From positions 13,590,702 through 13,654,701 of the forward strand of contig CAJINV010000001.1 in assembly GCA_905178155.1 (NCBI GenBank): DNA of 64,000 bases. The letters run 5' to 3'. The DNA is from Amoebophrya sp. A120 (Eukaryota > Protista > Dinoflagellata). Below, piece by piece: positions 3,714 through 55,673 of this stretch. The notes beneath the pieces are model-generated. The model ran no database searches. It saw nothing but the letters and a program-made list of their open reading frames with translations, and had not been told where the DNA came from. A program made the translations under genes and the position numbers. Each line of letters begins with the position of its first letter. Position 1 is the first letter of the stretch.

Positions 3714-5037
3714 ATGGGCAACACCAACTCGAATTCCACCGGCCTCGTTTTCCCGGAGTCCACCTCGGTGGGGAGACAGGCGGGAGAAGCGGAACTGGAT
3801 GAAGATGACGCATCGACGTCAGGTTCCTCCGAGGAGCAGACGGCATCGAACGAAGAGGAAAATTTTGGTGTGGAAAGACCGCTGGTGCAGTTGCGGCGGT
3901 CCCGAAATACACGGCAAAAGGAAGTACAACAGCCTAGGAGTCCTCGTCCGGAGGGGGAGGGAACCTACTACGACAGCGGCGATGATCAAGCCGGCAGTCA
4001 ACTGTTCGCTGGGGCAAGCACCAACCAAAGCGGTGCGGGCATGGCGACGGCAGCGACGAAGCGGTACCACAGCGGACGACAACAGCACCGTTCGAAGGGA
4101 AAGGGTAAAGGGAAGGAGCACAGCTACAAGTCGGCCCTCAGCGGCGGATCTTCGCCTGTTCCTATCAAGAGTGAAGAACGCAGTTGTACTTTTAGTATCT
4201 CTGTATAATATTCTTGCGTCGCTGCTGCTAGAAAGCTTCATGGGCCGGCGCTGCTCTGCAAAAATATGTATCTATGTGGTCCAATACTTGATGTTGACCA
4301 AAAGTAAAAGAGCAGGGTGTTTCTGGCAAGGGCCCGGCACTGCCACATCAGATGAATAAAATTGTAGATACAAAAGAAGGGCTGGAGTTTTACTCCTGAT
4401 AGGGACCTTCTCAGGAGACTTCGGCGAAGAAGAAGTTGACTCCTCGCCCAGGGACAAGATCCAGAAAAGGGAGGGTGAAGAAAAGCAGCCAACTGTTGCT
4501 GGCGGGGCCTCGCAGGTCTCCACGATGTCCCCCGCCTCTCGCAGTACCGCCTCCCGGGCAACCGCGATGCCGAGACCGGGCTACTCGTCCAGTGCCGGAA
4601 CTAAAGCTACCGACTATTCCTCCACGGGGGGCGCAAAACCTTCTACTATCACGACCGGGCGCTCGCCCTCCGGGGCGGGGTCGTCGAGACATCACTTGGA
4701 GAAACAGCACACCGGCGAACATACCGACGGCTTCTGGTCAAGTTGGAGCCGCCCGATCTACTGGATGGGAAGCTGTCCGATCTCTCTGGGACTGCTCTTC
4801 GTCCTGTGTGGGGGGATCGTCCTCCTGGGCACGTTCATTGGCGTGATGGCATGCATGTGCGCCCCGAGTGAAGAAGCGGAGGAAGAGAAAACCGAGAATC
4901 AGTCGTCCTTTGTGGCGCTGCGTCGTGGGCGGCGCTGGCGCCACGCATCGGGAATCGACCGGCCGAGACTCCGCGGGGCACTGATTACGAAGATGATGAC
5001 TGCATGTTCACTTTACTTGTTTTGTTTTGCACACTAG
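3714..5037 (+). CDS. Family member 3 (MGNTNS start; at least 2 exons; TM; SSFV...PRLRG)
   Basis: The 3714 ORF joins the 4525-frame ORF in frame, either by GT4171..AG4402 or by removing the inverted-repeat insert 4163..4406. TM is ISLGLLFVLCGGIVLLGTFIGVMACMC. Confidence 0.7.
4163..4401. mobile_element. TAT...ATA inverted-repeat intron (introner-like), degenerate
   Basis: Left end tatcaagagtgaagaacgcag...cttttagtatct; reverse complement of right end tatcaggagtaaaactccag...cttttgtatct. 5-bp flanks GTTCC/GGGAC. Removing the insert plus 5 nt keeps the frame. Confidence 0.65.
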
Positions 5038-5339
5038 GATCGATTGTTGAAAAATACTGTCGAAGAAACGGCTAGTGCTCGACATTGGTGTTCTTTTTGG
5101 GCTTGATAGTACTATGAAGAATTACAACCGCACCAAAAAGAACACGCTCACGATCCGCCACCGCAGCCCCGGGATTATGAAATGTGGATCATATGCTGCC
5201 TCATGGACGTATGTTGCTGTTTTTAATCCCGTACGCGAAAAATGTCGATGTACTCCCGCAAGCTAGAACTACATATGTTTATACGATTTGATGAGGCTAA
5301 TGGTTTTGCAGGACGCGTTGTCACGCAGGACTGCCACCA

Positions 5340-5579
5340 GTGCAGGAAAAGCAAAACAAGAAACTTTGCACCTCTATTACAACTCGCAGTGCCAGACAGT
5401 TGGCCGCTTCCCGCGCCGCTGAGGTCACCCCCTTCGAGGAGGCCTCTAGCGCGGCATCGGTGGACGGTGAGGGGGAATCTTCCCCGGCGGACCAGCAGTC
5501 AGCGGACCAACACGCGGCGGACCAGCACTTGGCGGACCAGCACTCAGCGGTCGGCCATCATTCGGCGACACCCAAGTAA
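5340..5579 (+). CDS. Possible terminal exon of member 3 with ADQ[QH] repeats
   Basis: LAASRAAE resembles the post-RLRG tail of members 1-2. It has four ADQ[QH] repeats. The splice junction is not resolved. Confidence 0.35.
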   Translation: MQEKQNKKLCTSITTRSARQLAASRAAEVTPFEEASSAASVDGEGESSPADQQSADQHAADQHLADQHSAVGHHSATPK

Positions 5580-7143
5580 AAACTCTCGGTTTTAATATAC
5601 GATAAGCATCTTCACGAGCAACCTGGAGCGGAGGAGTAGCCGCATCGACGGGCAACTCTGATCACGATGAATGCTGATTTCCATTTTTTTCGACTCCCAG
5701 AGATTTTTAAGCCTCGGGGTTACTTTTATTCGCATACTAGAGCTAAACTAAAATTTTGTGTTATTGCATTCGGTCTTTCGTTACACATCTTGCTAGTACT
5801 ATTGTCATTGCATTTTCCACCAGGTAAAGATTTCATTTCAACACTGAACCACTTGCTTTTTTTTGTTTGGCCTTACATTGATTTGACTCGCACGTAACAT
5901 TTATTTAGAGTATTGAAACCGTTTCTCTAGCGTTCTGCCTACCTCTCAGGGGGAGTGGATTATCTCGGCATATTGAATATTGCCGGGCTGTTACTTTCTG
6001 TTTATTCTGAAGGTGGAGACCCTGCTCTGAGAAGCCATGAGATGTCTCCTCCGCGTAAATGCACGGACTATGCCGCGACGTCTAGTATCCCTTGCGAACA
6101 AGAAAAGGCAACAAGAAGTACAAGTGGAAGGTAGCAGTTTTGTTGGTCGGTAGTAATGCCCTCCGGAGCAGAGGTTTTGGTTTTCTCTCGATCAGCCCCC
6201 GGGATTCGATGTGTCCGTTTCAATACTTCCGTTTTGGCAAGGATGAATAAGATAAAATGCAAATGAACTACACCAGTTTTGCGTGGTAGTGCGTCGGTGT
6301 CGTATGAGTTGATATTTTCGGTCTTCGTCCATTGATTTTTGCCATCTGCGATGAATATTCAGTCATTCCGCAGTGGCCATCTTCGTCTCTTTGCTCTATC
6401 GGTGATTTTTCCGCTGACAACTCGGTGTTGAACTCCTGGATGAGCGTGTGAAATTTAGAACGCCTTTTTATTCTGTCGGTGCGAAGCAGAGAATCAATCA
6501 TGAGGCTCGGTTTTGTACGTCGTGCAACTTGCTTATCGTTTTTCTCTTGTCATCGCTTGCCTTTCGTTGTTGCAAGGCCGCGCCAGCCACGCTGCGCATT
6601 GCTAGTCGTACTTTTTGAAACAAGCGGCAATGAATCCTGCCGTCTCTCTTTTTTTATCTTTTTAGTAGATTGCATTGATTGTGTACTCCCCCCAAAATTT
6701 TGTACATTGTGACCCGATACGAGAATCAATGCTAAGCGATGTACTCCCCCCGAAATGTACACTGATCTGAGACGAGAACTCAATACAATTCTAAGCTAAT
6801 ATCACCTTTTAAATCGTTTTTTTCTTCCTCCTCGAATTTATTTAAGAGCCATTCTCCGAATCGCGCTAGCAACATGTGTTGATGTAGCAGCCCTGTTGCT
6901 CATCGTATTTCTTCTTCATCTCGCGTCGTTGCCTATGTGCTTTACTATGTTGGTACAACACGATGTACTCTTACTACTACCGCTGCGTGCAGAACAGCAT
7001 AGCACGAAGACTACTGTACAACATGCAATTGTTATTTGTACGGAGATCAAGTACTAAAAGTTGGTCGTGATCAACCATCAATCGATCCTGATTGAACACA
7101 AAGTTCATCATCTTTCCTCGTTCTGCTGACAGGACAAGAAGTC

Positions 7144-9970: not shown

Positions 9971-12900
9971 ATGGGAAATAGCAACGTGATTATGGGCAAT
10001 GGTGCTTTCTTTCCTACCGCAGGACAGGACGAAGGCGAAGGGCACCAGGCTGATGCTGCGGAGCAGCAGCTTCAAGAGCCGCTCATCACGACAGGTATGT
10101 AACACAGTAAAGCCACGCTGGTGGAGGTCTGGATATGTGCATTATCGGTCCTAGGCCCTTACCTACAGGCTGCTAGCGCGGCCGCTTCCCGTCTTGCTTG
10201 AAAGAGGTCAGCGAATAAAAGTACCACTTCTAGAGCTTTGCAAATGCTGGAGCGATGGCCGCTGCGACCTTTTTTCGTCTTGTTTTTTGTGGTTCTCACT
10301 ACATTTTTTCTTTGGTGTCATAATCGATCTAATCTTGCCGCAGCCTTCTAGAGTTCTCCCGCCCTGACGTCTGCTGTGTACCAGCAGCGATTTCTCTCTT
10401 GAGCGGAACTTATTGATTTGCTTCTTTTCTTCCCCACTACAGGTAGAAGATCCGGGTCGCGGCGGAGCCGAACGAGCGGCCGGCAAAACCAGGACCCGAG
10501 GCTACTGAACCGCCACCAGCCCGTGTACAGCAAGGGAAGACCGGCGAATAAATCACGGGCTAGTAGTACAACCGAGGGTGACGGACCGGCACTGGCCGCT
10601 ATTCAGGAGGGGGAGGCTTTCGAGAATGTTTTAGCCGCCGGGGGCAGTGACGATGAAGGTGGGCCCCCGCACGGGCTCTTCAGCGAGCTCAACCAGCCTG
10701 CCGTGTTTGGCCTTCCGAGCAGTCTTCCCCCCACTGCGTCGGATGAGGAGCACCTCGATTTGGGCAACGCGTCCGCCGAAACCATAATGACGGAAGCACC
10801 GATGTCGGGGGAAGGGATCACGAGTCTCATCCTGGAGAGTGTGCTGCGGAGTGGGGTTAGCGATGAAGGGAGCGCTATCCTGAGTAAAAACGTACCCACA
10901 CCAGAGTCAGGATGGGGATTTTGCAACACAAACCTAGGAGTTTTGTGAGTCACGCATGACAAGTTGCGCTATGCAGTGTAGTGCAGGTTAGCAAGTGCAG
11001 CCGCATCACAGATTCATCTGCTCATCCTGTTCACAGCATCACAAATTCCAAAACACGACTGGAAATGGCTCTCATGGGGATGCGCATTACAAGTCTTCCT
11101 GTCTTTGCAAATCTGCATTACAACTCTGGTGTGTCAAGCCATCTGCGGCCTGGGGCAGGGGGGGGGGCAAAGTGTGCTGCAATTCCGTTTAGCATTACAA
11201 CTCTGGTGTGGGTATGTTTTTACTCAGGATAAGCGCCCCGTCCAAGGCGGCGACGTTGAGCGCGATGACGGGCACGAGTGCGCCCTCCACGGCATCCGTT
11301 AACACGCTCGGACAGATATCAAAAGGAAAAATCCCCCCTTCCCATATCGAAAACGAAATTTGTGATTCTGTATTTGAGTACACAAATCGACTTGTAATGC
11401 TAGAAGGCCAAGAGCCGCAGTCGTGGCCTAGTTTGCAGGTAATTTGTCATGTTGTTTCCCACTTCCGCCGCGTCCTGTCATGCTGAAGACGCAAGGCTTT
11501 CCCACGCCAACCAGCCCTACAGTCCGCATCTTTTCCCTTCTAGCATGACAAAGCTGTGACCACAAATCTGCATCACAGATTTTCGTTTTGATGTGGGGAG
11601 CGGGAATTTTTCCTCTTGATAACAGATGGCAGCTGGCGCCGCGGGTGGATCTCGCCCGGGCGTGTCGACGCAGTCCACCTTCGGCAGTTTTCTGACGCTG
11701 AAAAGTCAGATCTCCAGCTCTAAATTGGTGAGCGACGCGCGGCAGACCGCACAGCCGGACAACACGTGGGTTCCTGCGCAGTTCGGCATGCACCAGCCCG
11801 GCACGGGAGACGCAGGCAGCGGAACAAACGAAATTTCGCCCAGGGGCACCACTCTGGGCGAAATTGCAGGCATCACGTCCTCCGCCGGGGGTGCTCGCCG
11901 GGAGTCGGTCACGCTCGGGCAGCTGGCGGGCATCGCGGGGGCGGCGTCGCCCCCGGGAAGCAACGACCAATCGGGGTCCAATATGGATGGGTCAGGTGTG
12001 GGAAATGCACAAAATGGAAATGTGTTTGTAGAATGCATGTGCTGATGTGCTCCCTCTAGGACGGGCAAAAGCTCCGTATTGCATGGGAGGCAATAACGGA
12101 AGAAGATTGTATGTAATGCTGACAGGCCCGCCTGAACAGCGTGAGTGAATGCCTCAACGCGTTTGAGAAATTCTGTCGCTTGGAGGTGCGGATGCCACAT
12201 TTTTTACTGTGGAGCCGCTTCTAGTCATCACAAGTAAAAATGATTTCTGCGGAAGCGTGCTTTTTGGGTCGGGGTTGTGTAGTTTGTTTGCGACTCATCT
12301 CGGTTCTTTAGCATGACAAAGCATCTACTCCAGGTTGGGTGTAATTTCCCTTCTGACACTTCCATATCTAAAGCGATGAGTCGCGGGGGGCGTACGACCG
12401 CGCAACCGGATTCGGACCCGGCGTGGATGCCTGGCCAATTTGGGCATCGGGAGGATCATCCTTCCCAAGGAGACACGGAGGCGCACTGGATGTTTCAAAA
12501 TGGTCAACAAAGGCCCTCCCAAAACCAGCAAGGGGGGCCTGCCAACGCCGCAGATGGGGACACTGAGGCGCACTGGATGTTTCAACAGGGCCAACGGCCG
12601 TCCCAAGCGGACCGCCAACAAGGGGCGGATCCTTTCTACGGCGCAACGGATGCTGCAGATGCAGACGCGCACTGGATGTTTCAAGAAGGGCAGCAAAGGC
12701 CCGGGCAAGGCGGCGTGGCCGCAGGCGTACCTGGCGATGAAGACACCGAGGCGCATTGGATGTTCCTTCAACAGCAAGCGCAGATGAATGCGCAGTACGA
12801 CCATAAGGCCGGGGCGCACATGGGCATGATTGCGGCGACCAGGAAGAAGGTAAACTGCTGGTTCGAGGTGCTGCACCAGTGTGGACCGTTCAAAGTCACG

Positions 12901-13173
12901 CGGTTTTCGATTGTGACCGTGGCAACCTCGTGGGCCATCGGGATTACCATCATCTGCATCCTGATTTGCGGATTCCTCGTCGAGCGCAAAAGCGTCAAAC
13001 TTTCAAGCACCGAGGTCACGACCTCATCGTCGACTGCTGCGACCAGTACTACCGTGTCAACTGGAACGGGGAGCGCGCAAACATCCTCCTTGGAGGAACG
13101 GAACTGGTGGTGGCAGCCGAGCTCGCAGAACCCCCGATTACGAGGACGGGTGCTTATCCCCGTGAGAAAATAA
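9971..13173 (+). CDS. Family member 5 (MGNSN; 5 exons; WMFQ repeats; TM; SSLEE; PRLRG)
   Basis: ATG at 9971, a GT-AG intron at 10095..10442, then three inverted-repeat inserts. Their removal gives the in-frame junctions EGSAPSKAA, LGQMAAGA and GSKAMSRG. Confidence 0.75.
10876..11231. mobile_element. TAT...ATA inverted-repeat intron (introner-like)
   Basis: 32-bp TIR tatcctgagtaaaaac[g/a]tacccacaccagagt with 1 mismatch. Perfect 5-bp direct repeat AGCGC at 10871..10875 and 11232..11236. The internal GT10884..AG11227 pair would give a stop codon. Confidence 0.9.
11317..11621. mobile_element. TAT...ATA inverted-repeat intron (introner-like)
   Basis: Imperfect TIR of about 50-80 bp (tatcaa.aggaaaa.t.ccc...aaaacgaaa..tgtgat). 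Perfect direct repeat ACAGA at 11312..11316 and 11622..11626. Confidence 0.88.
11982..12366. mobile_element. TAT...ATA inverted-repeat intron (introner-like)
   Basis: Termini tatgga...tccata with a degenerate TIR (gtcag..gggaaat). Flanks TCCAA/TCTAA. Removal restores the frame. Confidence 0.8.
12469..12770 (+). repeat. Coding repeat, 4 x (G)D[TA][ED]AHWMF
   Basis: GDTEAHWMFQNGQQRP, GDTEAHWMFQQGQRP, DADAHWMFQEGQQRP and EDTEAHWMFLQQQ in the 12313 ORF. Confidence 0.9.
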
Positions 13174-14525
13174 CAGGTGTTCCACTTTGCAAGCCGGCTT
13201 TGATCATATTTATTGTGCTGCTGCTCCTGGGCTAGAAGATTAGTTCTGGATGGATATTTTCTCTTAGCAGTAGCACAAAATATAATCTTCAAATTCCTTT
13301 TGCAGCAGTTGTGCATATTCAATGTTTTGCAGCACCCTTTATCGATTAACAAAGGTTAATTTTAAGTATGGCAAAAAATTCTGCACGGCGCTGCTTCAGT
13401 CTGTCGTGAATTTTGGACAACAGGGTCGGCTTTTGAAAGTCGCGCGTTTGACAAGGAGGCAACACCGGTTTTCCCACACGATGAGTGGCAAATCAGCGAC
13501 AGCACCTGCAGCAGCGGTGACGACGTCCGATGGGGAGTCAGAACTGGCAGAGGACGACGATCAGGAGTAGGTTTGAGATTTTAAACGTTTCTGTTTTTTT
13601 TACCTTCAACACTGTCGACGTAAACGTATTATATGATGAAGTGCCATATCAAAATCAATTAATCTTCACAAAAATTCTTGACAAAAAATTTTACTCATTT
13701 ATCATCTTAAGGAGCGCAAGCTCTAGCCGTGTCGCGCATGTATTTCACGATCTCTGAAGTCATTCATTTAATTTTGCTTCAACAACAAGTACACTAGCAC
13801 TAGACACAGTAGCAAGATTTGAAATTGTCCAACGCTCGTGCTTCCGGGAGCCTATCAGGCCTGGGAGCTAGTTGTCGTAGCTTTTTCATGGATGTGTAAC
13901 TTCACGATTATTGGGAAAGACTAAGACAGCACGGAGATTGCGCTATCCTCCTGTGTCTGTCTCTGTGGCGATGGCGTACTGATCGACTTCGTAAGTATTC
14001 TGCACAGGAAAGGCTTTTGCAGTGATGTCGGTAGCTCGTCTTCGTCTGATTCTCTGACGTACCGTCGGTCTGCACCCGTTCTACTGAAGATTGATTCGTC
14101 GAAAATTTCCTTCACTATTTCGCAACGGATTTCGGTCGAGAGACAGTACACCTGTCGGTGCTCCCCGTTTCGTGAGTCGATATTCTATTACAGCTGCTTG
14201 TGTATCTTCGTCGGTTTACCAGAAGCTTGAGCTTCCAGGTTCGGTGCGCCCAGTAAAGGCTCGGAAAAGTTTTCGCTTTTGGTTGTACTATAACGGTTGT
14301 CAGGTTTTCCTCGGTATCAATGTGTTGCATCTTCATTTCGTCGAAGTTTTCGATAGCTCGACGCTCGAGGAGTACCACTCAAATTTTGCAATCTACAAGC
14401 ACGACAGGCTTTCCCCCGAGCCTATTCTTTACATACTCCCACATTTTCAAGATCTGAGAATTACGTACAAACATTCCTACGTGTATTTCATCAAATAATT
14501 GCTGAAGCTAATCTACCGAAAATTT

Positions 14526-16172: not shown

Positions 16173-16425
16173 CCGAAAATTTTGTTTTAAGTCCTTCACG
16201 ACAGAAAATTTGAAAGGTTTATTGTATGTATCAAGTCGTATCAACTACATTCCAATTCGTATTCGATTCAAGACGAAAACGAACGCAAACAAAGCATCCC
16301 GACTTACGATACGAGAGTTTTGCATCTCTGTTGACACTACAACGTCGCACACTAAACTTTTTTGCCATTTGAAGCTTTCTAGGTCTTGCTCCTGATGTTC
16401 GGATTCAATATTGCCCCCTAGCACG

Positions 16426-19252
16426 ATGGGAAATACCGAATCAAGTGGTGGAACAGCGCCGGCAGGCCGAATTCGTGGCTCCTCACGACGGGGAGATGAT
16501 CTTCAGCGGAAGAAGCAGGTGCGTGCCGACGGCGAAGCGGGTGCGTTTTCCGTGCTTATGCAACCCAATCGCGCGGAGGGCTCCAGTACAGACGAGAACA
16601 ACAGCACCAGCGCGTCCCGAATCCGGCGAGGCCACGAGGGGGAGAACACGACGTCCCAACGCAAGGACACCCCGGGCAGCTACGCCCATGACGCCCAGAT
16701 TCCGGTGCCGTCCGACGGGACCACGGAGGCCGGGACCGGGTCCGCGGAGCGTGCCCGCAGCCTGCAATTGGGATCCGCCACGGCGCAGGATCTGCAGAGG
16801 ACCTCGTTCGGGTCCGTAGATCTGCAGAACCGGTCCGCCGACGTGCAAACGCTCGCCCAACGCACGATTCAATTGATGGCCGAGGCCAATCAATCGGGGA
16901 AGACCAATGCTTCCGCGGCGACCACCGGAGGAATGGATCAGATCCTGGTCCAGCCGCCACTTCGAAATACGGCGGCGATCCAGCAATCCAACCCTGCTGT
17001 ATCGGCGAAGAAATCGTACACGGGGAATGATTCCGGCACAGCCGGGGGCCGGCAGTCCACCTCCTTAGCCAAACAAGGAAGCGCGGACCAGCCGAAACAA
17101 GGAAGTGGGGATCGCCGAAGCTTTCTTCCGAGCAGGATCACGGCAACCGGAACTTCTACCCAGCAGGCCGGACCGGCACCTGCGGGTAGTGCCCAACAAC
17201 AAGCCTCCCATCCGCACCAGACCCTTGCGGACTTGGCCCGAGCAGGCGGTGGTTCCGTGCCCGCCCAGAGCCAACCGATGAGCCTCGGCCCGAGCCAAGC
17301 GACAGGCTTCGGCCAGACGAGTCAAGCGACAGGCTTCGGCCAGAGCCAACCGACAGGCCACGGCCCGAGCCAACCGACAGGCTTCGGCCAGAGCCAGCCA
17401 GGAGCTTTTGGTGCCACCATCGCACCGGGGCAACAGTCTTCCGCGCAGAGCCGGACACCATCGCACCTGGACCAGAGCCGGACAGTGCCGTTTCAGGCGG
17501 CCTCGGCTCGCACCGACCAGCCGTCGGAAATCGTCCAGACACAAGGCACCGCCGACCGATCGACGAGGCGCGTGGTTCGCAAAACCCGAGTCACCACACA
17601 TAGGCGTGGGAAAAAGTTGCTGCTCAAACAGGTGGACTGGTTAGTCCTCTATTATTCTGAAGTAGTCACTTCGTACAAAGACAAACGAGCGAAATCTGAA
17701 GAGCCTACTTATCTCGTGGCGTCTTCTTATGAGAAGTTCTTGGTTTACTACGATTTTTATCGTCAACTGACAGCACGACCCGCGCCTTTGACATAGACAG
17801 AATTTTTCTGCAGATAATGCCGGTGCAGGCTGTTGGACCGATGTAATAGTGCGGTTTGTAAAAAAACTTGTATGCGCACAAAAGCAAAACAATTGTACTA
17901 TTGAACTTGGGATGTTGCAGCTGAAAACAAAGAACTAGTTTTTGTTGCCCTGTACAGAGCAGCAACTATTGCCCAGGATAAGGAAAGGCAGGTCGATTCT
18001 GACAAATCAAGATTTTGGCGAGGCGCAAACCACGGGCGTTGGCCACACGTACGGGAGTTCGCCGTACGGAGGGGGTCGGCCAGACGAACAGCCGTTGCTG
18101 GGGCAGTCGTTTCTGCCGGGACAATACCAGAACGTGACGGCGGGCGGAGATGGTGAAGCGTACTCCATGGCAGCGGGCGAGGATCCGAACCTGTGCTGCA
18201 CGTGCGGTTATTTGAAGTGCTCTCGCACGATGGTTTATGCAACAGAAAAGGAATGGACGTCGACGCCGCTCAAGTCGTCGTCACAGGCACGGCTCGTTTA
18301 ACTTGTGTGGAGTGTCTGTATGTTGACATAATTAAAAGATGGTCCTTGCGTGTCTACTAGGGGCACAAATTAGAAATCCATCTCCACAAACCACACGACC
18401 ACTTTCTGAGAAATCACAGAGATCTGGGAATAACAAACCAAAAAACAAGAAGACTTTGCATGTTTGTTCCTCTGACGACGGACAACAACGACGTTCACAT
18501 GATCCTTATCTGTTGCATAGTCTCATCGTCACCGTAGTGCTAGGGGTGTTGGTGCTGATTTCGGCCGCAGTGATTTTGGCCGTCTGCCTGAGGAAGAAGA
18601 GCACAAAGGTTGAAATATCAGAAATGAAGAACTCATTCGCAGTGGTGTACCTGACTTCAGCATCATAACTTCTGAGCCTGTGGCTTTCTCCGGTTCCTGT
18701 GCATTTTTGGCAGTCAATTTGCCTTACTCCGAGGTAGGTTCGGGGGAGATGTAAAAATGTATAGAGATTTCGTTTATATTCCCACCTTGTGGCGGCGTTA
18801 CTGTTCCTGCTATGGTACAACTACGAAATGGGTTCTTTTCTGCAGCATAAACTACTTCGCACTACTACAACCAGTACACGATCGACAACGGTCAAGACGC
18901 TGCTGCCGCCGCTGCTGCCCCTGCGCAGTCGCCCCAGATCACGATTAGCGTTCTGCAACCCGAGGTATTCCCCTGGGAACAAACACCGGTTGGAAGTGGG
19001 GAACTACCCAGGAGCGGGCAAGCGGGTGCGTCCGCGGCGGCCGGGCCTCCCGCGGCTCAATTGCCCGCGGCGGCGGGATCTTTTCTGGAACATGACGACC
19101 ACAGCTCCATTTCCTCGGAAGATGCGTTGCACGTGGCGCACACGGCTGGCAAGCAGGTAAGAAACTGGTCGCAGTCCTCCATGCTCAACCCGAACGGCGA
19201 AGCGGGAGGCAAAAAACCGCGCCGCACCAAAAACTTGCGCGGGAGGTCGTGA
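16426..19252 (+). CDS. Family member 6 (MGNTES; GFGQSQ repeats; Cys cluster; TM; GSFLE; NLRG)
   Basis: Exons are joined across inverted-repeat inserts 17601..17980, 18236..18519 and 18616..18849. TM is IVTVVLGVLVLISAAVILAVCL. The final exon ends AAAGSFLEHDD...KNLRGRS*. The last junction is uncertain. Confidence 0.65.
17265..17410 (+). repeat. Coding tandem repeat SQ[PA]TG[FH]G[QP]
   Basis: About five copies of a 24-27 nt unit (agccaa[c/g]cgacaggcttcggccag). Confidence 0.85.
17601..17980. mobile_element. TAG...ATA inverted-repeat intron, degenerate
   Basis: Left end taggcgtgggaaaaagttgctgctcaaacagg; reverse complement of right end tatcctgggcaatagttgctgctctgtacagg. Flanks ACACA/AGGAA. Removing the insert plus 5 nt gives in-frame VTTQGRSIL. 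Confidence 0.6.
18236..18519. mobile_element. TAT...ATA inverted-repeat intron (introner-like)
   Basis: TIR tatgcaacaga[a/t]aagga plus further degenerate pairing. Flanks TGGTT/GTCTC. Removing the insert plus 5 nt gives RTMVIVTVV. The nearest GT-AG pair is out of frame. Confidence 0.8.
18616..18849. mobile_element. TAT...ATA inverted-repeat intron, degenerate; junction unresolved
   Basis: Left end tatcagaaatgaagaactcattcgcagtggtgtacc; reverse complement of right end tatgctgcagaaaagaacccatttcgtagttgtacc. Reaching the SFLE frame needs removal of +1 or +4 nt, not +5. Confidence 0.55.
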
Positions 19253-26820: not shown

Positions 26821-28041
<1,221 letters not shown>

Positions 28042-35243: not shown

Positions 35244-35270
35244 ACAACTTTAAAAAAATTTTTTCTTCAG

Positions 35271-46370: not shown

Positions 46371-46896
46371 TAGACCTTTTTTCTCACCGAGAGGTTTTTA
46401 CATAACGACGAGACGCGACAATCACGACTTACTTTGGTTGATGGCAAGGGGCCCCGAACCTGCATAATCTTTGTGAGGGATCTCACAACTGCAATTGAGT
46501 GTTCGGAGATGAAAAAGGATCAGTTTATTTGTTTGTGCCCGCGAGATCTGTCTAGATCCACGTATGTATATGCTGAAGCCTTCGACTTCCATACAGTAAC
46601 CCGAGACTTTTCGTGAATACATTTGGCAGTCGAAGTAGATGATCTGTCTTTGACGGCACATTTTTTCGGTTTTATTTCTGATTGGTCGCTTCTAATACCT
46701 TCGGGCCGCTTGATAAGTTTTCGAAAACTATCTTCTGCTTTCAAACTTAACGTTGAATCCTTCACACTACCACTCCACCTACACTCCATCCTTATTTACT
46801 TGCCGGAAACTGAGCATGAGGCTGCTCGCTCTGCACTCCTCCTGCATCTCTACTTCTGCTAATATGAGGTAACAAACCTTGAACTAATTTCTTGCC

Positions 46897-49800
46897 ATGG
46901 CGACAGCCCGGCAGCTGTACGCGGTCTCGTGCGAATGTCCGCACGGGTTGCGGATCGAGGTGGACTGGCAGCCGGGCGACGACGTGACGGCAAGTTTGTT
47001 CATCGACCACTTGCTGGTTTGCCAGCGACAAAACCCGTTTTCCACGAGCAGCAGTGGCAAATGGATGCATTTCCCGGTGCGCGTTCGGGATTTGCCGCTC
47101 ACAGCGCGCATAAATTTTCAGGTGGTACGCGAGAACGGGGGCATCTACGAGACGGTTTTGCATTTGTTTCAACCGGACGCAGTGCTGAAACAAGGGCGGC
47201 AGTTGCTAATCCTGCGCGACCCGTTGGAGTTGGCCATAGCCGAAGAGCAGGACGAGGTTGATGAAAGCAATGGTGACAGCACCGAGACGGCTGATATAAT
47301 TAGAGTGAGGTAACAAACCAAATCTGGAACTTCGCGGTTGAGTTCTCATCCGGCCGGCCGGCCGGATGAGAACTCAACCACGTCACCGGCGGAATCGATC
47401 CGGCCGCCCGGCCGGCCCAGTCGTCTTCTCCCCTCCCTCAACCGGTGTGGACCCACTCTCACTCTGCTCCCCCGCTGTCCCGCCCGAGCCGCGTTTTATT
47501 TACTATGCAAAAAGCCCCTGTTGTCATGCAAAAGCAGCGGAAAGCGCCGAAACCGAGAAAAACAGACGCTAATAGTAATTTATTACTCCTTTATTTGCTT
47601 TTCACACCACCAGGCAGGGCACTACTCCCAGTTCCGCGCTGTAGTGTTGTTTTGCTATGCAAAAAGCCCGTCTCTTGTCATGCAAAAGCAGCGGAAAGTG
47701 CCGAAACCGAGAAAAACAGATCATATGTTGCTTCTTCTTCAACTGCTACGACTACTACTGGGCGCTGCTACGTACAACTACTGCTGGGTGCTGCAGTACA
47801 CACTTACTACAACTTGGTTGGTCGGTGGTTGGTTACTTGGTTGTTGGTCGGTGGTTGGCGTGCCGTCGCGATTCGAGAAGCCTAAGTGCAAGGCTTTTGC
47901 GTGTGGCACTCACGAGAAGGAGAGCGCGCTCCTATTTTTGGAAGCAATACGAGAAGAAAAAGCACAAAAGTGAGTAAGTAACTTTCTTTATCGTGTCGGA
48001 TCCTCTAGAGGGATCCTCATCCTGCTCTGGCCAGTTTTAAATTGCAACTGGAAGACCCTCTTCATTTTTGATCAGAATTAGATCCGCATCCTGGCGCTGG
48101 CTGGCATTGATCATTTACGATCTTGCGCACGCTTACATGGTCGATACAGAGGGCGCGCTTCGTCTGCCGCGGAAGGTTGCGACTTGTCCCTGCGGGTTGC
48201 GAGTCTGGTTTAACTCGCAACCAAGTAACCAGTAGTAGTTGTACGTAGCAGCGCCCAGTAGTAGTTGTAGGAGTTGAAGTAGAAGCGACGTATGATCTGC
48301 TTTTCTCGGTTTCGGCACTTTCCGCTGCTTTTGTATGACAAAAGAGGGGCGTTTTGCATAGCAAAACAACACTACAGCGCGGAAGCGGGAGTAGTGCCCT
48401 GCCTGGTGGTGTGAAAAGCAAATAAAGGAGTAATGAATTACTATTAGCATCTGTTTTTCTCGGTTTCGGCGCTTTCCGCTGCTTTTGCATGACAAAAGTG
48501 GGGCTTTTTGCATAGTAAAAACGCGGCTCGGGCGGGACAGCGGGGGAGCAGAGTGACAGTGGGTCCACACCGGTTGAGGGAGGGGAGAAGACGACTGGGC
48601 CGGCCGGGCGGCCGGATCGATTCCGCCGGTGACGTGGTTGAGTTCTCATCCGGCCGGCCGGCCGGATGAGAACTCAACCGCGAAGTTCCAGATTTGGTTT
48701 GTTACCTCACTCTTACAGTTTCTTCGCCCACTGCAGAGGCAGAACAGGAGTTGCTGAATTGGGACAAGTTACTGGATCTCGCGGACCGTGGACTCCTCGC
48801 GGAAGGCGGCGGCTTTGCGCGTGAGCACATCCAGAATCTCGCGGACGATGCTTTGCATCGGCTGGGAAAGGAGGTGCTGACGGTCCACTTACCGTGTTTC
48901 ACGTACCCGGTCATCTGGGGCGAAACCACGTACGCGGATTCTGTGGCGGTGCGACACATGTACGCAACCAGCCCCAACGCGCCCCCGGTGCTGCTTGCGG
49001 GGGCGGATGAAGCGGTCCCTTGGACGACGAGCTCTCAAGACGGAGATGATGACGACGCTGAAAATGTTGAACCCTGCATCAACAGCGGCGAGTTGTCACG
49101 TGCAGAAAGAGGGGGCAGTACGAACCCAAAAAATAGCATCACGCCTTCCAGCTCCAAAAGCACGGCGGTTTCGCTGATGGACGTGTTGTCGCAAACGTGG
49201 TATCCCGACACAGGCGTGGATGCACACAGCGGGCTTGGCAGGTCGCACTTTGTCGTGCTCGTGGATCACGAGCTGGAAAGCAATTTCGAACATCCCGCGC
49301 ACCTCAAGTACCTCAAACTTCAAAAGGGCGAGGGTGGGGAGAAGGAACAGAGTCAGGTATTGTAAAATGAATGTAGACTGATGTTAGAAACAAATTCATG
49401 GATCCACCATTTAAGATGAGAATTCGGGGGGTAGTTCGTTGGGTGTCGCAAGATGAAGAACTCACATTGTAAATAGACTCTCCTTTTCAAATACCCCAGG
49501 GCGTCCTCCGTCCGAACGGGGAGGAACTCACCCGGTTGAACGAGCTGGTCCGGCGGCCAAAACGGACGTACAGTGTGGAGGAGAAGTTGTTGCTGTACAA
49601 GTTTCGGCACTCGCTGATGGACAAAAAGGAGGCCCTGGTGAAGTTTTTGCTCGTGGTCGACTGGCTGGACGCGGCGGAGAAGAAGCACGCGCTCGAACTG
49701 ATGTCGCAGTGGCAGGCCATCGACACGGATGACGCGCTAGCGCTGTTGAGCAAGGATTTCCGGGGCGTCGCCGAAGTGCGCCGGTACGCGGTGGACCGGC

Positions 49801-52565
49801 TGGAAAACGCGTCGCAGGAAGAGCTGCTCGGGTATTTGCTCCAGCTGGTGCAGGCGCTGCGGTACGCGCCGGGCAACCGCGGCGCGTCCGGAGAGAACGA
49901 CCCGTCGTCCGAAGTTGCGGAAGGGGTCGCAAAAGACGCGTTCGACAATAGCGGGGAGGCGGACCCATTACTGGTGTTTTTGATACACCGAGCGCAGAGG
50001 AACGTGGTAAGCGAGGGTAGTAGTTTTGCATACTGCATAGAAAGCAGGATCTTCATGTCTGTATAAGAGCCTCACTTGAGAAATTGCTTAAGGATTCACT
50101 CTCTACTACTTGTATCTGCAGCCCGGTTTTGTACTTGTGACGTGGCAGCTATCAGACAGGAAGAAGTGACGAGCTCGCCCTGCGTAAGTATTGACTTCAT
50201 AATTTCAGCACTTTCATTCATTCCTTCTTTCAGGTTCTCGCCACCTACTTCCACTGGTTTCTGATCGCCGAAATCGAAGCGAGCGACAGCGGGCAATTTC
50301 GGGAGGGTGAGGCCGCGCTGTTCAACGCGTACATCTTCGTGAAGGCGCGGCAGCAGCTGCTGGACTCCCTGGAGGAGAACCAGCCGGCGTTCGCGAAGAT
50401 CATCACGGACCAGATCACCTTCCGGCGGAAGCTGCTCTGGGCCATGCGGATCAGCAAGGCGCAGAAGCGGCAGAACATCGAGCTGAAGATCGCGAAGTTC
50501 CAGGACGCGCTGTCGGGCAAGCAGGTCCCGGACCCGGACCTGGGGGACCGGATGGTCTCCAAGCAGTTCCAAGTGCTGGATCTGCCCATGATCGTGGACC
50601 CCACCAAGCGGCTGGTGCGGATCATCCCCTCGAAGTGTTTCCTGATCAAGTCTGCCATGTACCCGGCAGTTTTGCATTGCGAGGTCAAGGTATGACAGTG
50701 CACAACCCCCCCTCCCCCTCTTTGTCATGCAAAAACGCAAACTCAGCTGCTACCTTATGGCACCGCGTGCATGACAAATTCCGGAACTCCAAACAGTACT
50801 ACACTCGGCGCATGAACTTGTCATGCACAGGGTCCACCTGTACTGGTGTTTGTAATGCTGTTGATGCCATACAAATGAGGGGGAGGGAGAGTTGTGCACT
50901 CTCATACAAGGACGAGAACGAAATCGTGTCCCTGCGGAAGTTATCAAATGCAAAAATGTCTGGGTCTGGAAACTTGTGATGCTAAAATGTGAATGGTGGG
51001 CGCACTGCAATACGCAGCCAAGCATGACAAATTTTTGAGCTGCTCTTGTGTTTCGTTTTCCGCATGGCAGCCTGCGTTTCTGCGTGACAGACAAGAGGCC
51101 CTTTTCCTGCTCCTGCATCAGACTTTCTCGAGTCATGCCAGACAAGCATGACATTCTTCCAGACCCAGACATTTTTGCATTTGATAGAAGTACATGTTCA
51201 AAGAGGGCGACGACCTGCGACAGGACCAGCTGGTGCTGCAGATGATCATTCTGATGGACTCGCTGCTGAAGAAGTACGGTCTGGACCTCCGGCTCACGCC
51301 CTACCAAGTGATTGCCTGCTCTACTGTAGACGGCTTCATCGAATTTGTTCCCGACGCGCAAAATTTGTCCGCGGTTCTGGCGGAGAACAACAACGACCTG
51401 TGGGGCTATTTCAAGTCCATCTCGGCAGAAAACAATGCGGCAATGCTTTTGAAAACATCAGCTTCGGGTGGTGGAGGTACTACCAAAGGAGCTTCATTGT
51501 GTGGCATTTATACCACATCAACAGCACAGCAAGGCGCTAGTGGAGGCTACTCGACTAGTAAAGAACTCAATGTGACCAACAAACCCTTGTCGTCTACCCT
51601 AAGTTCTGCTACCTCTACTGCTTCACACCAGAGACCAGAGGTAGACCCGGAGATCTTGGACAACTTCGTGCGCAGCTGTGCCGGTTACTGTGTGATCACG
51701 TACATTTTGGGCATCGGGGACCGGCACCTGGATAATCTGATGGTGTCGAAGTCCGGCCAAATGTTTCACATCGATTTTGGTTACATTCTGGGCAATATCC
51801 ACTGCAAAGAAAAATTACATGTCGGGGGCTGGATTATAAACCTATGATGCTGCAGCTCGCTGAATTGTGGATGCTTTTTGCAACACTTGCAGTCGCAGAT
51901 TTTCCTGGAATTATGCAAGACAATTAACAGATACAGAAGCTTTAGTTTTCATTCACAGCACCCAGGCATATTTGCAAAGCATAAACAAGGACCCGAAGCC
52001 GCTACCGCCGCCGATGAAGTTGTGTCGCGAGATGGTGGACGGCATGGGCGGGAAGGATTCCACGGGGTACCAAACCTTTTTGAGCAACGCGTGCGAAGCC
52101 TTCAAAATTCTGCGGCGGCATCAGAATTTGGTCGTGAATCTACTCTACCTGATGTCCGACGCGGGGATTAAGGACATCTCGCAGTTTGCCCTTTCAAAGC
52201 TGCAGGAGAAATTCATGTATGCAATGCAAAAGAAATATCGTTGATTTGGTAGAGAAGAGTAAGTACGTACCTGCAAGTTGTAGGCTCCTGCATTGAAGAG
52301 AGCGGATGAAGCAATTATGCGATTTTCTAGATGCATCTACTAATAAATCTCTAGCCAGCAGCGCAACTTTTGCCTGTCGGGTCTTGCCAAGATTTGTACT
52401 TACACGACCTTTGCTATTCCTATTGCTTTTGCAATGCATATCACGCCGGAGAAACGAGACGAGGAAGCTGAGAAGGAATTCATTTTGCTCATTAACGAGT
52501 CCGTAAACGCGCTCTTCCCACAGGTCCTCGAGAAACTACACAAATGGGCGGTGTACTGGAGGTAG
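46897..52565 (+). CDS. VPS34: Class III PI3-kinase Vps34 (5' end uncertain)
   Basis: C2 region (VRVRDLP, LKQGRQ), helical domain (LLQLVQALRY), kinase motifs FKEGDDLRQDQ, LGIGDRHLDN and HIDFGYILGKDPKP, and C-terminal LHKWAVYWR*. GT-AG introns at 49357..49499 and 50007..50233, plus five inverted-repeat inserts. Confidence 0.95.
47303..48712. mobile_element. 1.41-kb foldback element with TTA target duplication (PIF/Harbinger-like signature) in the Vps34 ORF
   Basis: Inverted arms of about 485 bp, starting gagtgaggtaacaaacc and ending ggtttgttacctcactc. TTA at 47300..47302 and 48713..48715. Removal with one TTA gives in-frame ETADIITVSSPTAEAE. Confidence 0.88.
50691..50906. mobile_element. TAT...ATA inverted-repeat intron in Vps34
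   Basis: TIR tatga[c/g]agtgcacaac..ccctccccctc. Perfect direct repeat CAAGG at 50686..50690 and 50907..50911. It can also be read as GT50690..AG50910. Confidence 0.9.
50942..51186. mobile_element. TAT...ATA inverted-repeat intron in Vps34 (subfamily A)
   Basis: Perfect 30-bp TIR tatcaaatgcaaaaatgtctgggtctggaa. Perfect direct repeat GAAGT. Removal gives LRKYMFKEGDDLRQD. No GT-AG register for this junction. Confidence 0.92.
51796..51983. mobile_element. TAT...ATA inverted-repeat intron in Vps34 (degenerate subfamily A)
   Basis: Termini tatccactgcaaa and tttgcaaagcata. Flanks GGCAA/AACAA. Removal gives the conserved GYILGKDPKP. Confidence 0.8.
52218..52440. mobile_element. TAT...ATA inverted-repeat intron in Vps34
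   Basis: TIR tatgca[a/t]tgcaaaag. Flanks TCATG/TCACG. Removal gives EKFMPEKRDEEAEKEF...YWR*. Confidence 0.88.
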
Positions 52566-53417
52566 ACGGGCGATGTACTGGACGCAGGTAAAACAAATGG
52601 CCGCCAAAAGTGGTTTTGCAGAAAGAGCACAGTGCAAGAACATTTTGATGCAGCTCGAGACCAGGAGAAACGGGTCAATAAGGGTGTGAACAATAAAGCT
52701 CATCTTTTTTGCTGCTGGTGGGTGCCTATTTCGTTCTGTAGGAGATGTGCAGATGATGAACCCGAAGCAAAGAGACTGAAAGTTGTGAAGACAATATGGC
52801 AAATAGATCGGTCGACTCTGAATGAGGCCCGTGTCCTTGAGGCACAAATTTACCTTGAGGGGTTTGGTTCGTGACGCCGCATCATTTTCTTGTGATGCCG
52901 CATTATCGTTTTGTTGACTCCAAGCACACTCTTCAATCGCAGGGAAACGTCGTGATCAATAACATGCTAAAAGTCGTGTCGTCACTGGCAGTCGGGGCCT
53001 ACAGAATCATCGTCACCGCGTTAGAAAAAAAGTATCGTCGTGTCGCGTTTGCCAAACGGTTTAGCGCTATCGCAGGAAAAATCAAAGATCACAGGCTGCA
53101 GCCCGTTGCCATTTTTCGTGCAGAAGGCATCTTCGTGTCTTCTAGGGGGTGTGTTGTGTGGCACGTGACGTGATGTCGTACGTACAGGCATCGCGTATTT
53201 ATTCAATGAATGTTTCTACGGCTCACGTTTTCGCCTCGATCTTGAAGGATAATTGTCCGCGAGTATGATTCATTCCTGCAAGAAGTGTCCTCATAAATAC
53301 AAGTTTGAACGTGTTTTTTCAATGCGCCGGAAGGCGAAGTCACGGCAGAAGAAAGTAGGATCGATTCCAATTTACCTTCCCAATCTGTAAGATCGTTGCC
53401 AACTAGGGCTGATTCTC

Positions 53418-55673
53418 ATGATGGAGGGGGATACAAGGCGACCGCAAGTAGAGACAGCAAGCGTGTCGACAACATACTCGGTGGACACCGAATCGACCAG
53501 TGCCTTGGTGTACATATCCAACGGGGAACTTGTCCCCGGCTACGCCGCTACTGCGCTCCTGAAAGAGGAAAGTTGGAGATCACGACTGTCCGCTACAACC
53601 AGCGGTTCAACAAGTGGGAGCAGAGCGAAGGGGGTCGTGTCCGCGTCGCCGACGGACGAAGTAGAAGATGGTGCAGAGGAGCATGCTGATGTTGAACAAG
53701 GATTGCTCTACGCTCCTCCGCAAGCGACAGGAGATAATCATCTACACCGCGGGCGAAGGGGACGCACTAATGCGCAGAAGGTCTTTGACGCAGTGAATGG
53801 CGACGGTGCGGCAGAGCAGCGCGTGAGTGCGTTGGAGAACCTGGATCACAGTCTCCAGTCGGCGGTTCTCGTGTCTTCCATGTATGCGCTGGCCGGGCTG
53901 AAGTGCACTGCTGGGGGGACAAATGTCCAACTGTATGCGGAGGCCTTGTGGATGTGGGGCATCACTTTTGCCTCCTACTCGCTGCAGTTTCTTCTCGTCA
54001 TCGCGGTGCAAATGGAGATCACGGGGAAGTTTGCCGTCGCGTGGAAGCAAAGTCTCCAGGAGCTGATTCCAGCGTTGGGCACAACCACCTCCGAAACCGT
54101 CAAAACTGCCTTCTCAAGCTTTCTCAGCCTGGGATCCGCCGAGCATCTCGCGCAGCAGCCTGGTGCTGGGTTCCACTGGTCAGCGGACAGGCGGTTCCTG
54201 CCCGCAGGGGCCAACAACAACCCGCGGCTTGACCAGCAGCCCGCCAGCAGCAATATCGAGGATCGAGCCAACATGTGGACCACACATCATGCTGCGGCGA
54301 ACATCACAGAGCACCTAACGTACCTTCGCGAAAACCAACCGGACAAATTTAATGAAGTCTGTGACTGGTCCATTTCTTCCGACATTTGGCTGATTCTCTC
54401 CCTGGCCCTAATTCACGTGTTTGCGGTCTGGGCAGAAACTGGGAAGCGGCTGCACATCACTGGCTGGTGCTTTCTCGGATCGCACCGGATTCCGTCTGGC
54501 CGTGCCGCTGACTCGATTGCACTGGAAGCGAGCGTGGAATTTGAAGATGAAGACGCGAAACAGGTGGAGGGCGGACGACGACTTTCGCACAAAATCACGT
54601 CTGTCGACAAGGACCTTATGTTCGTGCTGGTTGGCTGCCCGCGGTGGTTCAAGCTGATCTTTAACCTATTCGTCGTGTTGCCGCAGGTTGTGGTCGCGGC
54701 CTCGACCCTTGCAATCGGTTTGGAGTACTACATCACTGCGACCATTGACAACATCCTAGGTAACGCCGCACTCTTCCTGATTGTTTTACAGGTCGACGAC
54801 TACGTGTATGAGGCCGTGACGACGCCCGAGCGCCAGAAGGAGACAACGGATGCGCGGATTCTGATCTCGCGGCACATGAAAGCGGACAAACTGAACCCTC
54901 GGACCATGTGGGTACGCTCGCTCTTTGCGGTCTTGATTCCCCTTCTGCTGTGGTACTTGATAGTACACATCGTCCCTGCGAGGGTTGGTAGTATCAACTG
55001 CAAAAATGTCTGGGTCTGGAAACTTGTAATGCTAAAAGTGGATGATAGCTGGACTGCAATACGCAGCCAGGCATGACAAATTTTTGAGCTGCTATGTGTT
55101 GCGTATTCCGCATGAGAAACAACGTTTTCACATGACAGATAGGAGACCCTTTTCGTGCCCATGCATCACAGATTCTCGAGTCATGTCAGCCATGCATGAC
55201 AAATGTAAGAATCTTCCAGACCCAGACATTTTTGCAATCCATAGGTAGGACGCCGGAGCAGATCGAAGAAATGATGGACTACTGCAAGACTATCCACTGC
55301 AGATGCGTTGTCGGGGTCTGGAAATTACGTAGCGAGTTCATGCTTGTTTTATCGCACTCCCGGGAATATATAATTCTGTGTTCTTGCATGAGGGGCAATA
55401 AAAGCAGAGCTTTGATGTCTGGCACGCGATGAACGCGCAACTTTTAATGGATGCGCACTACGCATGGGGGGGCGTAGTTCGCGCTCCAAAGACTTGCTGT
55501 CCTCTGCTGTACTCACAAGCGTCCCTGGTTTCATTCGCAAATTTATGCGTGATGCATGTACATGTTTGCAGACCAAGACACATTTGCAGTTGATAAGAAC
55601 GGATCTGAGAACACGGATATTCAACAACACCTGGGACTGGACGGATTTGCTCAATATTCTGGAGGAGTACTGA
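53418..55673 (+). CDS. Multi-pass membrane protein of unknown function
   Basis: About 5 hydrophobic helices, including ILGNAALFLIVLQVDDYVY. Two terminal exons (RTPEQIEEMMDYCK, TDLRTRIF...LEEY*) are recovered by removing two inverted-repeat inserts. Confidence 0.7.
54992..55243. mobile_element. TAT...ATA inverted-repeat intron (subfamily A)
   Basis: TIR core tgcaaaaatgtctgggtctggaa. Perfect direct repeat GGTAG at 54987..54991 and 55244..55248. Colinear with 50942..51186 over its whole length. Confidence 0.92.
55291..55595. mobile_element. TAT...ATA inverted-repeat intron (degenerate subfamily A)
   Basis: Left end tatccactgcagatgcgttgtcggggtctggaaa; reverse complement of right end tatcaactgcaaatgtgtcttggtctgcaaa. 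Flanks AAGAC/AGAAC. Removal restores the frame. Confidence 0.82.

What the first reader, a model, noticed from the sequence alone, without database searches (positions are those of the whole stretch)
4163..55600. A rule-governed class of non-canonical introns: TA(T)...ATA hairpin plus 5 nt
Seen: 14 inserts of 123-385 bp interrupt six genes, starting at 4163, 10876, 11317, 11982, 17601, 18236, 18616, 37340, 50691, 50942, 51796, 52218, 54992 and 55291. Their TIR sequences differ, but all begin TAT (one TAG) and end ATA. Five have perfect 5-bp flanking repeats. In 13 of 14, deleting the insert plus 5 nt restores the frame, even where the repeat has fully decayed. Most have no usable GT-AG register, yet four sit in Vps34 kinase-region exons. 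Established: IR/DR introner elements are reported from Amoebophrya genomes and their excision mechanism is unresolved. Inference: excision is defined by the terminal stem and a fixed 5-nt offset, not by splice dinucleotides.
Basis: partly seen in the sequence, partly recalled or inferred. Interest (0 to 1): 0.88.

Follow-up and report, generated by a model that had tools for sequence, protein, structure and literature searches.

The report
Hairpin transposon introns with fixed cuts
Fourteen small hairpin-ended inserts in six genes of a marine parasite belong to an already described class of transposon-like introns, and for thirteen of them the published transcript-based proteins lack exactly the insert plus five bases although most have no normal splice signals, which suggests that the hairpin likely sets a fixed cut position.

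Summary
The window's proteins match NCBI Amoebophrya sp. A120 proteins at 100% identity. Farhat 2021 described these TAT-starting introners but called their splice sites variable or unknown.

Removing insert plus exactly 5 nt fits 14 of 14. Thirteen fit transcript-based proteins and one fits RT homologues. RNA-like contigs from one sample give the same sums for four inserts, while DNA contigs keep the inserts.

The 5 nt equal the target-site duplication: 89 of 104 copies from another assembly have an exact 5-bp repeat. Where the repeat has decayed, the upstream copy is kept, so the 5' cut lies at TAT or one base before it. Only 2 of 14 allow GT-AG, and both orientations occur.

The stem persists where the repeat has decayed (13 of 14 predicted end-to-end stems). 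Two additional introns with unique junctions disagree on the register (-1 versus 0), and one spliced insert folds poorly.

The catalyst is untested; a hairpin-guided, U1-less spliceosome is my inferred lead. I found the fixed register in none of six literature searches. This scan noted similar hairpin introns in other dinoflagellates.

The parts
4163..4401 (+). TAT..ATA insert in gene starting 3714; repeat decayed (2/5); flanks have become mutually complementary
   Evidence: P0122 needs +5, cut -1..+1
10876..11231 (+). young insert, perfect 5-bp repeat, multi-copy family
   Evidence: P0124 needs +5
11317..11621 (+). insert, perfect 5-bp repeat
   Evidence: P0124 needs +5
11982..12366 (+). insert, repeat 4/5
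   Evidence: P0124 needs +5
17601..17980 (+). TAG..ATA insert, repeat 2/5, terminal stem out of register by one base
   Evidence: P0121 needs +5, cut -1 or 0
18236..18519 (+). insert, repeat 1/5, stem intact (folding z -4.0)
   Evidence: P0121 needs +5, cut -2..0
18616..18849 (+). insert, repeat 1/5, bulged stem
   Evidence: P0121 needs +5, cut -1 or 0
37340..37462 (+). insert inside a reverse-transcriptase gene, repeat 1/5; its splicing is not shown
   Evidence: +5 with cut 0 or -1 scores best against a profile of 20 homologues, 295.8 bits versus at most 288.9 for other in-frame lengths; RT label
50691..50906 (+). Vps34 insert, perfect repeat, GT-AG possible at cut -1
   Evidence: P0001; RNA-like contig sum
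50942..51186 (+). Vps34 insert, perfect repeat, member of a large family
51796..51983 (+). insert in the Vps34 DFG-ILG/KDPKP motif, repeat 3/5, weak predicted stem
   Evidence: RNA-like contig pieces end at 51792, cut 0..-3; motif gap-free in 25 aligned Vps34; folding z -0.08
52218..52440 (+). Vps34 insert, repeat 4/5
   Evidence: P0001 needs +5, cut -1 or 0
54992..55243 (+). insert, perfect repeat, same family as 50942
   Evidence: P0123; RNA-like contig sum
55291..55595 (+). insert, repeat 3/5
   Evidence: RNA-like contig pieces restart at 55599, cut 0..-2; P0123
47310..48710 (+). additional 1401-nt GT..AC intron in Vps34 made of a long-TIR element; unique junction inside the stem; intron +1 pairs with -6
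   Evidence: P0001; X1 contig piece starts at 48711; 16 of 16 pairs
13154..13487 (+). additional TT..TG intron: decayed TAT(13155)..ATG(13483) element plus 5 nt, unique junction at cut -1
   Evidence: P0124 only; no RNA cover
49357..49499 (+). GT-AG intron in Vps34 that looks like an old G-TAT..ATA-C element plus 5 nt; stem weak

Best explanation
The inserts are short inverted-repeat elements with a 5-bp target-site duplication that stay in the DNA and are missing, together with exactly five flanking bases, from the transcript-based proteins, and the terminal RNA hairpin likely fixes the cut for what is likely a U1-less spliceosome. Shown: element anatomy, 5-bp duplication, removed length of insert+5, retention of the upstream repeat copy, and no need for GT-AG or for one orientation. 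Inferred step 1: a DNA transposase acting in trans spreads the elements (MITE-like). Inferred step 2: the TIRs pair in the pre-mRNA and bring both junctions together. Inferred step 3: the 5' cut falls one base before TAT, so that intron position +2 is always U as in a spliceosomal donor, and the 3' cut falls four bases after ATA; cut 0 with five bases is the alternative. Inferred step 4: the stagger of the cuts equals the duplication length, so insertions are healed without a scar, which would let the elements invade even the Vps34 kinase domain. I put fixed, structure-positioned RNA removal at about 0.8 and the spliceosome as catalyst at about 0.55-0.6 of that case.
For: (1) Length: P0001, P0121, P0122, P0123 and P0124 each accept only extra=5 for 13 of 13 inserts they span. 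The annotation is built from transcript alignments (PMC7789003 section 25). RT homologues give the same for the 14th. (2) RNA-like contigs X1 and X2 remove 567 = 252+305+10 nt, and X2 removes 698 = 227+216+245+10 nt. Piece ends 51792, 55599, 54986, 51187, 49353/49497, 50005 and 59307 equal the predicted left-shifted junctions. (3) DNA-like X5 contigs run unbroken over 51162-55017 and 55218-56283. (4) Duplication: 89 of 104 distinct copies exact at 5 bp and 12 of 104 at 4/5; exact repeats of 3, 4, 6, 7, 8, 9 bp occur in 1, 1, 0, 1, 0, 0. 107 of 110 perfect repeats are distinct. (5) Register: every decayed case allows cut 0 and -1. Intron 13154 needs -1. All nine leading A120 splice motifs in Table S4 have T at +2. 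(6) No dinucleotide selection: GT-AG is possible in 0 of 34 strand-called coding insertions with perfect repeats, and in 3 of 110 on either strand against 9.3 +/- 3.0 expected. Orientation is 13 opposite and 9 same among 22 resolvable. The strand caller was right in 60 of 60 held-out calls and called 0 of 31 non-coding stretches. (7) Stem: at least 12 predicted end-to-end pairs in 13 of 14 inserts against at most 5.9 in 11 GT-AG introns, including unrelated old copies. (8) A120 keeps U2, U4, U5 and U6, while U1 was not detected.
Against: The two unique junctions disagree: 13154 gives +1 paired with -4, whereas 47310-48710 gives +1 paired with -6. The terminal three pairs are predicted in register in only 10 of 14 inserts, and 51796 has no predicted end stem yet is spliced. 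The annotated intron at about 4983-5382 has no stem. No AG, branch or pyrimidine consensus is seen at the 3' end under either register, which is hard for a spliceosome. T at +2 in Table S4 may come from aligners sliding towards GT-AG (inference). The annotation prefers the longest ORF, and it may rest on the same RNA as X1-X4. Those runs are one sample, are only guessed to be RNA, and cover none of the exons around the seven inserts in 3600-19400. All RNA evidence is cDNA-derived. The 31 of 32 frame result in the loci (6 more unsure) is partly circular, because strand calls assumed +5.
Confidence: 0.5

Rival explanations
1. Same elements and same fixed stagger, but the catalyst is not the spliceosome. 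A structure-specific nuclease cuts both strands at the base of the hairpin and a ligase joins the exons, releasing a linear or circular intron, as suspected for euglenid nonconventional introns.
For: Any dinucleotide, either orientation and no 3' consensus. The 47310 intron uses a non-AG end although an AG lies 8 nt further on. Euglenid stem-closed introns are released as circles (review PMC11282704).
Against: T at +2 is common to 13154, 47310, 49357 and the -1 register. The 47310 cut sits on a GT inside a continuous stem. Register differs between the two unique junctions. No nuclease candidate was looked for.
Confidence: 0.3
2. No ruler exists. A tolerant machinery cuts at several positions near the stem ends, and only insertions or products that rebuild the original frame survive selection, decay and annotation, so the 5 nt merely record the duplication length.
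For: 5 equals the duplication length. Registers of 13154 and 47310 differ. Annotation favours long ORFs. Contigs drop rare variants.
Against: +2, +8 and other in-frame lengths are never used in 13 of 13 annotated cases. The upstream copy is kept in every informative case, even in low-complexity proteins where other choices should be tolerated.
Confidence: 0.13
3. The deletions are reverse-transcriptase template switches across a hairpin between short direct repeats (recalled artefact), so the true mRNAs keep the inserts.
For: A hairpin with direct repeats is the recalled signature of this artefact, and all RNA evidence here is cDNA-based.
Against: Exact +5 removal holds where only 1-2 of 5 repeat bases match. 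Four inserts break a Vps34 whose motifs are otherwise conserved, and P0001 is the only A120 protein among the 120 hits listed.
Confidence: 0.04
4. The inserts are cut out of the DNA in some life stage, like ciliate internal eliminated sequences.
For: TIR plus duplication is transposon anatomy. The joint table was truncated (204 rows not shown), and contigs drop rare alleles.
Against: X5 contigs cross 51796, 52218 and 55291 without gaps. The contigs that lack the inserts also lack ordinary GT-AG introns.
Confidence: 0.03

Closest known systems
Introner elements among the non-canonical introns of Amoebophrya sp. A120 (Farhat et al. 2021, PMC7789003)
   Same: Same organism by protein identity. 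IR starting TAT, then 7 variable bases and an A run; direct repeats of 3-5 nt with a 5-bp example; about 240 nt; strain-specific families; mechanism open.
   Different: [quoted passage not shown] Here the repeat is 5 bp in 101 of 104 copies (4/5 or better), removal is insert+5, and the 5' cut is confined to 0 or -1. Its Figures S19-S25 could not be seen and may show part of this.
A120 introner families classed as TIR DNA transposons (PMC12130899, Dataset S2)
   Same: TIR elements of about 250-300 bp with mixed, mostly non-canonical splice sites.
   Different: In the 22 of 58 A120 rows I saw, duplication lengths are 2-5 or NA (5 in fam19, fam160, fam183). No fixed junction register is given.
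Euglenid nonconventional introns (PMC12501133; review PMC11282704)
   Same: Ends joined by a stem, non-GT-AG, direct repeats that make junctions slidable.
   Different: They have CAG/CTG motifs at +4..6 and -8..-6 (so +1 faces -3) and are released as circles. Here the ends are TAT/ATA, +1 faces -4 or -6, and the product form is unknown.
Non-canonical MITE-derived introns of Fritillaria borealis (review PMC11282704; PMC13326754)
   Same: TIR and duplication origin; excised by a modified U2 spliceosome.
   Different: They have preferred ends (AG-AC, AG-AT) and U1 is kept. Here no dinucleotide is preferred and U1 was not detected.

Membership tests
Amoebophrya A120 introner elements | Inverted repeat joining the 5' and 3' ends of the intron | tested here: met
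   13 of 14 have at least 12 predicted end pairs; 51796 does not
Amoebophrya A120 introner elements | Direct repeat of 3-5 nt at the boundaries | tested here: met
   5 perfect and 9 decayed in the window; 89 of 104 exact in the loci
Amoebophrya A120 introner elements | IR begins TAT and has an A run after seven variable bases | tested here: met
   13 of 14 begin TAT; positions 11 and 12 are A in 99 and 103 of 110 loci elements, where TAT itself was imposed by the scan
Amoebophrya A120 introner elements | Transcript-supported non-canonical junction | tested here: met
   RNA-like contigs bear on five inserts; transcript-based proteins span 13; 37340 not shown
Amoebophrya A120 introner elements | Repeated in the genome | tested here: met
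   50942 family in 128 loci of another assembly and at very high contig depth in X5; old copies have no relative in the window
MITE / TIR DNA transposon | TIRs and a fixed-length target-site duplication | tested here: met
MITE / TIR DNA transposon | Autonomous partner encoding the transposase | not tested
   no whole genome held; the longest ORF of the 1.4-kb element has no Pfam hit
U2-type spliceosomal intron | GT(GC)-AG ends | tested here: not met
   2 of 14; 0 of 34 and 3 of 110 in the loci
U2-type spliceosomal intron | Pyrimidine tract or branch consensus | tested here: inconclusive
   pyrimidine fraction 0.43-0.76 in inserts and 0.33-0.90 in 11 GT-AG introns
U2-type spliceosomal intron | Lariat intermediate and snRNP dependence | not testable with these tools
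   no raw reads of this strain covered the genes
Euglenid nonconventional intron | CAG/CTG motif near the ends | tested here: not met
   end sequences
Euglenid nonconventional intron | Release as full-length circle | not testable with these tools
   contigs only
Ciliate IES (features recalled) | Excision from DNA | tested here: not met
   X5 contigs keep 51796, 52218 and 55291; rare alleles not excluded

The most novel reading that the evidence does not exclude
A120 has a splicing route that ignores dinucleotides and measures both cuts from the base of an RNA hairpin, with a stagger matched to the 5-bp duplication of its resident transposons. Tens of thousands of apparently random non-canonical introns would then follow one geometric rule, carried out by a non-spliceosomal nuclease-ligase or by a spliceosome in which the hairpin replaces U1 and 3'-AG recognition.
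Probability: 0.4. Interest if true: 0.82.

Novelty: already known. Interest (0 to 1): 0.5.

Why it matters
About 65% of RNA-supported A120 introns are non-canonical, and their excision is an open question (PMC7789003). Reading the published variability as junction ambiguity inside a constant 5-bp duplication gives a sharp prediction: removal equals element+5, with the 5' cut at 0 or -1. This can be tested with existing reads and would correct gene models. It also separates spliceosomal from nuclease-ligase models and would explain how transposons sit harmlessly in conserved exons. The elements themselves are not new.

Tried and rejected
No whole genome is held, and the locus records could not be searched, so no genome-wide tally or empty-site orthologue was possible.

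No RNA holder is on record as RNA. Raw-read run X9 matched only the TIR of the 50942 family, at other loci (89 reads). X1-X4 did not cover the exons in 3600-19400, which says nothing about splicing there. Including DNA run X5 swamped the joint table, so junctions were derived from piece ends and record coordinates.

Idea that repeat position 5 is conserved: 8 of 9 decayed window repeats keep it (P=0.005 for that position, picked after the fact). In strand-called loci, 4 of 14 mismatches fall at position 5, one in a probably mis-paired element. Not accepted.

Idea that decayed repeats are converted to extend the stem: striking in 4163 and 37340, but 8 of 24 overall, about chance.

Idea of a fixed branch A at -6: the base there is C in 47310 and 49357. 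Dropped.

Nearby in-frame GT-AG pairs exist for 4163, 11982 and 17601 but do not give the annotated peptides. Rfam found nothing in the window. No annotated A120 protein was recovered for the RT gene. One column (Vps34 3' part and gene 53418) was run in the wrong frame and was replaced.

Rows dropped: one search kept 104 distinct elements with both ends from 128 loci, of about 150 estimated. strand-called 44 of 152 elements.
Full report
Identity. A Vps34 exon retrieved P0001 at 100% identity, labelled Amoebophrya sp. A120 by its source. Four more window genes retrieved A120 proteins. No whole genome is held.

Observation. All 14 inserts are present, 123-385 bp long, with TAT (one TAG) and ATA ends, and five have perfect 5-bp repeats. 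TAT is the only starting triplet whose stems commonly carry the repeat: 7 of 13 pairs, against at most 3 for any other triplet. Four old inserts have imperfect stems, and their ends were set by TAT/ATA. 50942 and 54992 are one family; most of the others are unrelated to one another.

Removed length. For each insert I tested all combinations of removed length and 5' cut against the annotated proteins. Only insert+5 reproduces them: four Vps34 inserts, 4163, 17601, 18236 and 18616, and 10876, 11317, 11982, 54992 and 55291. These models come from transcript alignments, with a preference for the longest ORF (PMC7789003 section 25). For 37340, +5 rebuilds PFGIGPAPG, which matches the PFGLGPAPG motif of homologous reverse transcriptases and scores best of 42 variants. 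That shows the ancestral site, not splicing.

RNA and DNA. Contigs X1 and X2 (one sample, guessed to be RNA) skip 54987-55598 leaving 45 nt, and X2 skips 50006-51186 leaving 483 nt. That is two inserts plus 10 nt in each case. Their piece ends equal the predicted left-shifted junctions, including those of ordinary GT-AG introns. X5 contigs cross 51796, 52218 and 55291 unbroken. The genes in 3600-19400 were not covered, and X9 matched only the TIR.

What the 5 nt are. A scan with one element end gave 128 loci from another assembly; their matches to the window fall only on the elements. Of 104 distinct complete copies, 89 have an exact 5-bp duplication and 12 a 4/5 one, and other lengths are at background. 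The repeats are nearly all different. The elements are therefore TIR transposon-like with a 5-bp target-site duplication, and splicing removes one copy. A subterminal motif is shared by the six youngest-looking inserts and the long element, and is absent from exons and from eight other inserts.

Register. Where the copies differ, the upstream copy is kept. Allowed 5' cuts are -1..+1 (4163), -1..0 (17601, 18616, 52218), -2..0 (18236, 55291), -3..0 (51796), and 0 or -1 by best score (37340). Two additional introns have unique junctions. Intron 13154-13487 is a decayed element plus 5 nt cut at -1 (annotation only). Intron 47310-48710 is a 1.4-kb GT..AC intron cut inside a perfect stem with +1 facing -6 (3' end supported by X1), which matches cut 0. 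They disagree by one base on each side. The nine leading A120 motifs in Table S4 all have T at +2, as cut -1 predicts, but aligner bias could cause this. An annotated intron near 4983-5382 has no stem and does not fit.

Signals. GT-AG is available in 2 of 14 window inserts, in 0 of 34 strand-called coding insertions, and in 3 of 110 on either strand against 9.3 expected. Elements lie in both orientations, 13 versus 9 (caller checked). Frames on the two flanks fit +5 in 31 of 32 confident loci, a partly circular test. End-to-end stems are predicted in 13 of 14 inserts and in none of 11 GT-AG introns, but the terminal three pairs are in register in only 10 of 14, and 51796 is not predicted to pair.

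Mechanism. I commit to hairpin-positioned removal in the pre-mRNA with a stagger equal to the duplication length. The catalyst is most likely a U1-less U2-type spliceosome that reads only U at +2 (inferred; U1 undetected and U2, U4, U5, U6 present). A nuclease-ligase route is a close rival. Loose cutting followed by selection, template switching and DNA excision are less likely.

Literature seen. PMC7789003: abstract, passages, sections 10, 11, 12 and 25, supplement part 2 and Table S4 rows; figures not visible, and S19-S25 may bear on novelty. PMC12130899: passages and 22 of 58 A120 rows of Dataset S2; two supplementary files were not searched. PMC12501133: passages and section 5. PMC11282704: passages and section 6. 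PMC12005148 and PMC13326754: passages. Henriet 2019, Guminska 2021 and Roy 2023 were seen only as cited. The template-switch artefact and IES features are recalled. Six searches listed no paper that I could see stating a fixed register for A120; most subscription papers are outside the library. Earlier scan notes describe similar element-plus-one-duplication removal in other dinoflagellates (unchecked), and none for this genome.

Verdict. Real, and a known class. The fixed 5-bp duplication and the junction confined to 0 or -1 are a useful and apparently unpublished refinement. They rest on one window, one RNA sample and one further assembly. Interest 0.5.

Noticed in passing
window 47303-48712: A 1.4-kb long-TIR element in the Vps34 5' region is spliced as a GT..AC intron and leaves a 12-nt in-frame footprint. 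It can be read with a TTA duplication or as an altered TAT-type element, and it carries three copies of the shared subterminal motif.
   Followed up: partly
window 46863-46885: A solo TAT-starting copy of that element's TIR lies just upstream of the Vps34 start codon.
   Followed up: no
window 49357-49499: A GT-AG intron whose ends also read as a G-TAT..ATA-C element plus 5 nt with a 3/5 repeat, possibly an old element turned canonical; the stem is not predicted in the full fold.
   Followed up: partly
window 4983-5382: An annotated non-canonical intron in P0122 with no stem, flanked by a 5-nt repeat that the annotated junction does not use; an artefact or another intron type.
   Followed up: partly
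window about 29600-39700: A retrotransposon-like region: an RT gene (RVT_1 in homologues) with an apparent GT-AG intron at 38280-38373 and insert 37340, plus an ORF at 32787-33875 with a tyrosine-recombinase-like motif (recalled, untested).
   Followed up: partly
window about 14530-16170: An intergenic element of about 1.6 kb with inverted ends of about 70 bp, internal AT-rich palindromes and a CG-repeat core.
   Followed up: no
window 1591-21941: A tandem run of low-complexity genes, most starting MG(N/G) and ending in a hydrophobic segment with cysteines, with no Pfam hits; those in 3600-19400 were not covered by X1-X4.
   Followed up: no
window 25173-26177 and 41604-46370: An HVSL-family gene (PF09749; USB1-like U6-processing role recalled), and a 1588-aa ORF joining a cytidylyltransferase-like domain to an mRNA cap methyltransferase.
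   Followed up: no
window 4158-4406 and 37335-37467: In two old inserts the downstream 5 nt have become complementary to the upstream exon end, extending the stem across the junction; not enriched overall.
   Followed up: yes
window 51155-51186: Raw RNA reads of run X9 carry this family's TIR with different flanks, so the family occurs at other loci in that sample.
   Followed up: no
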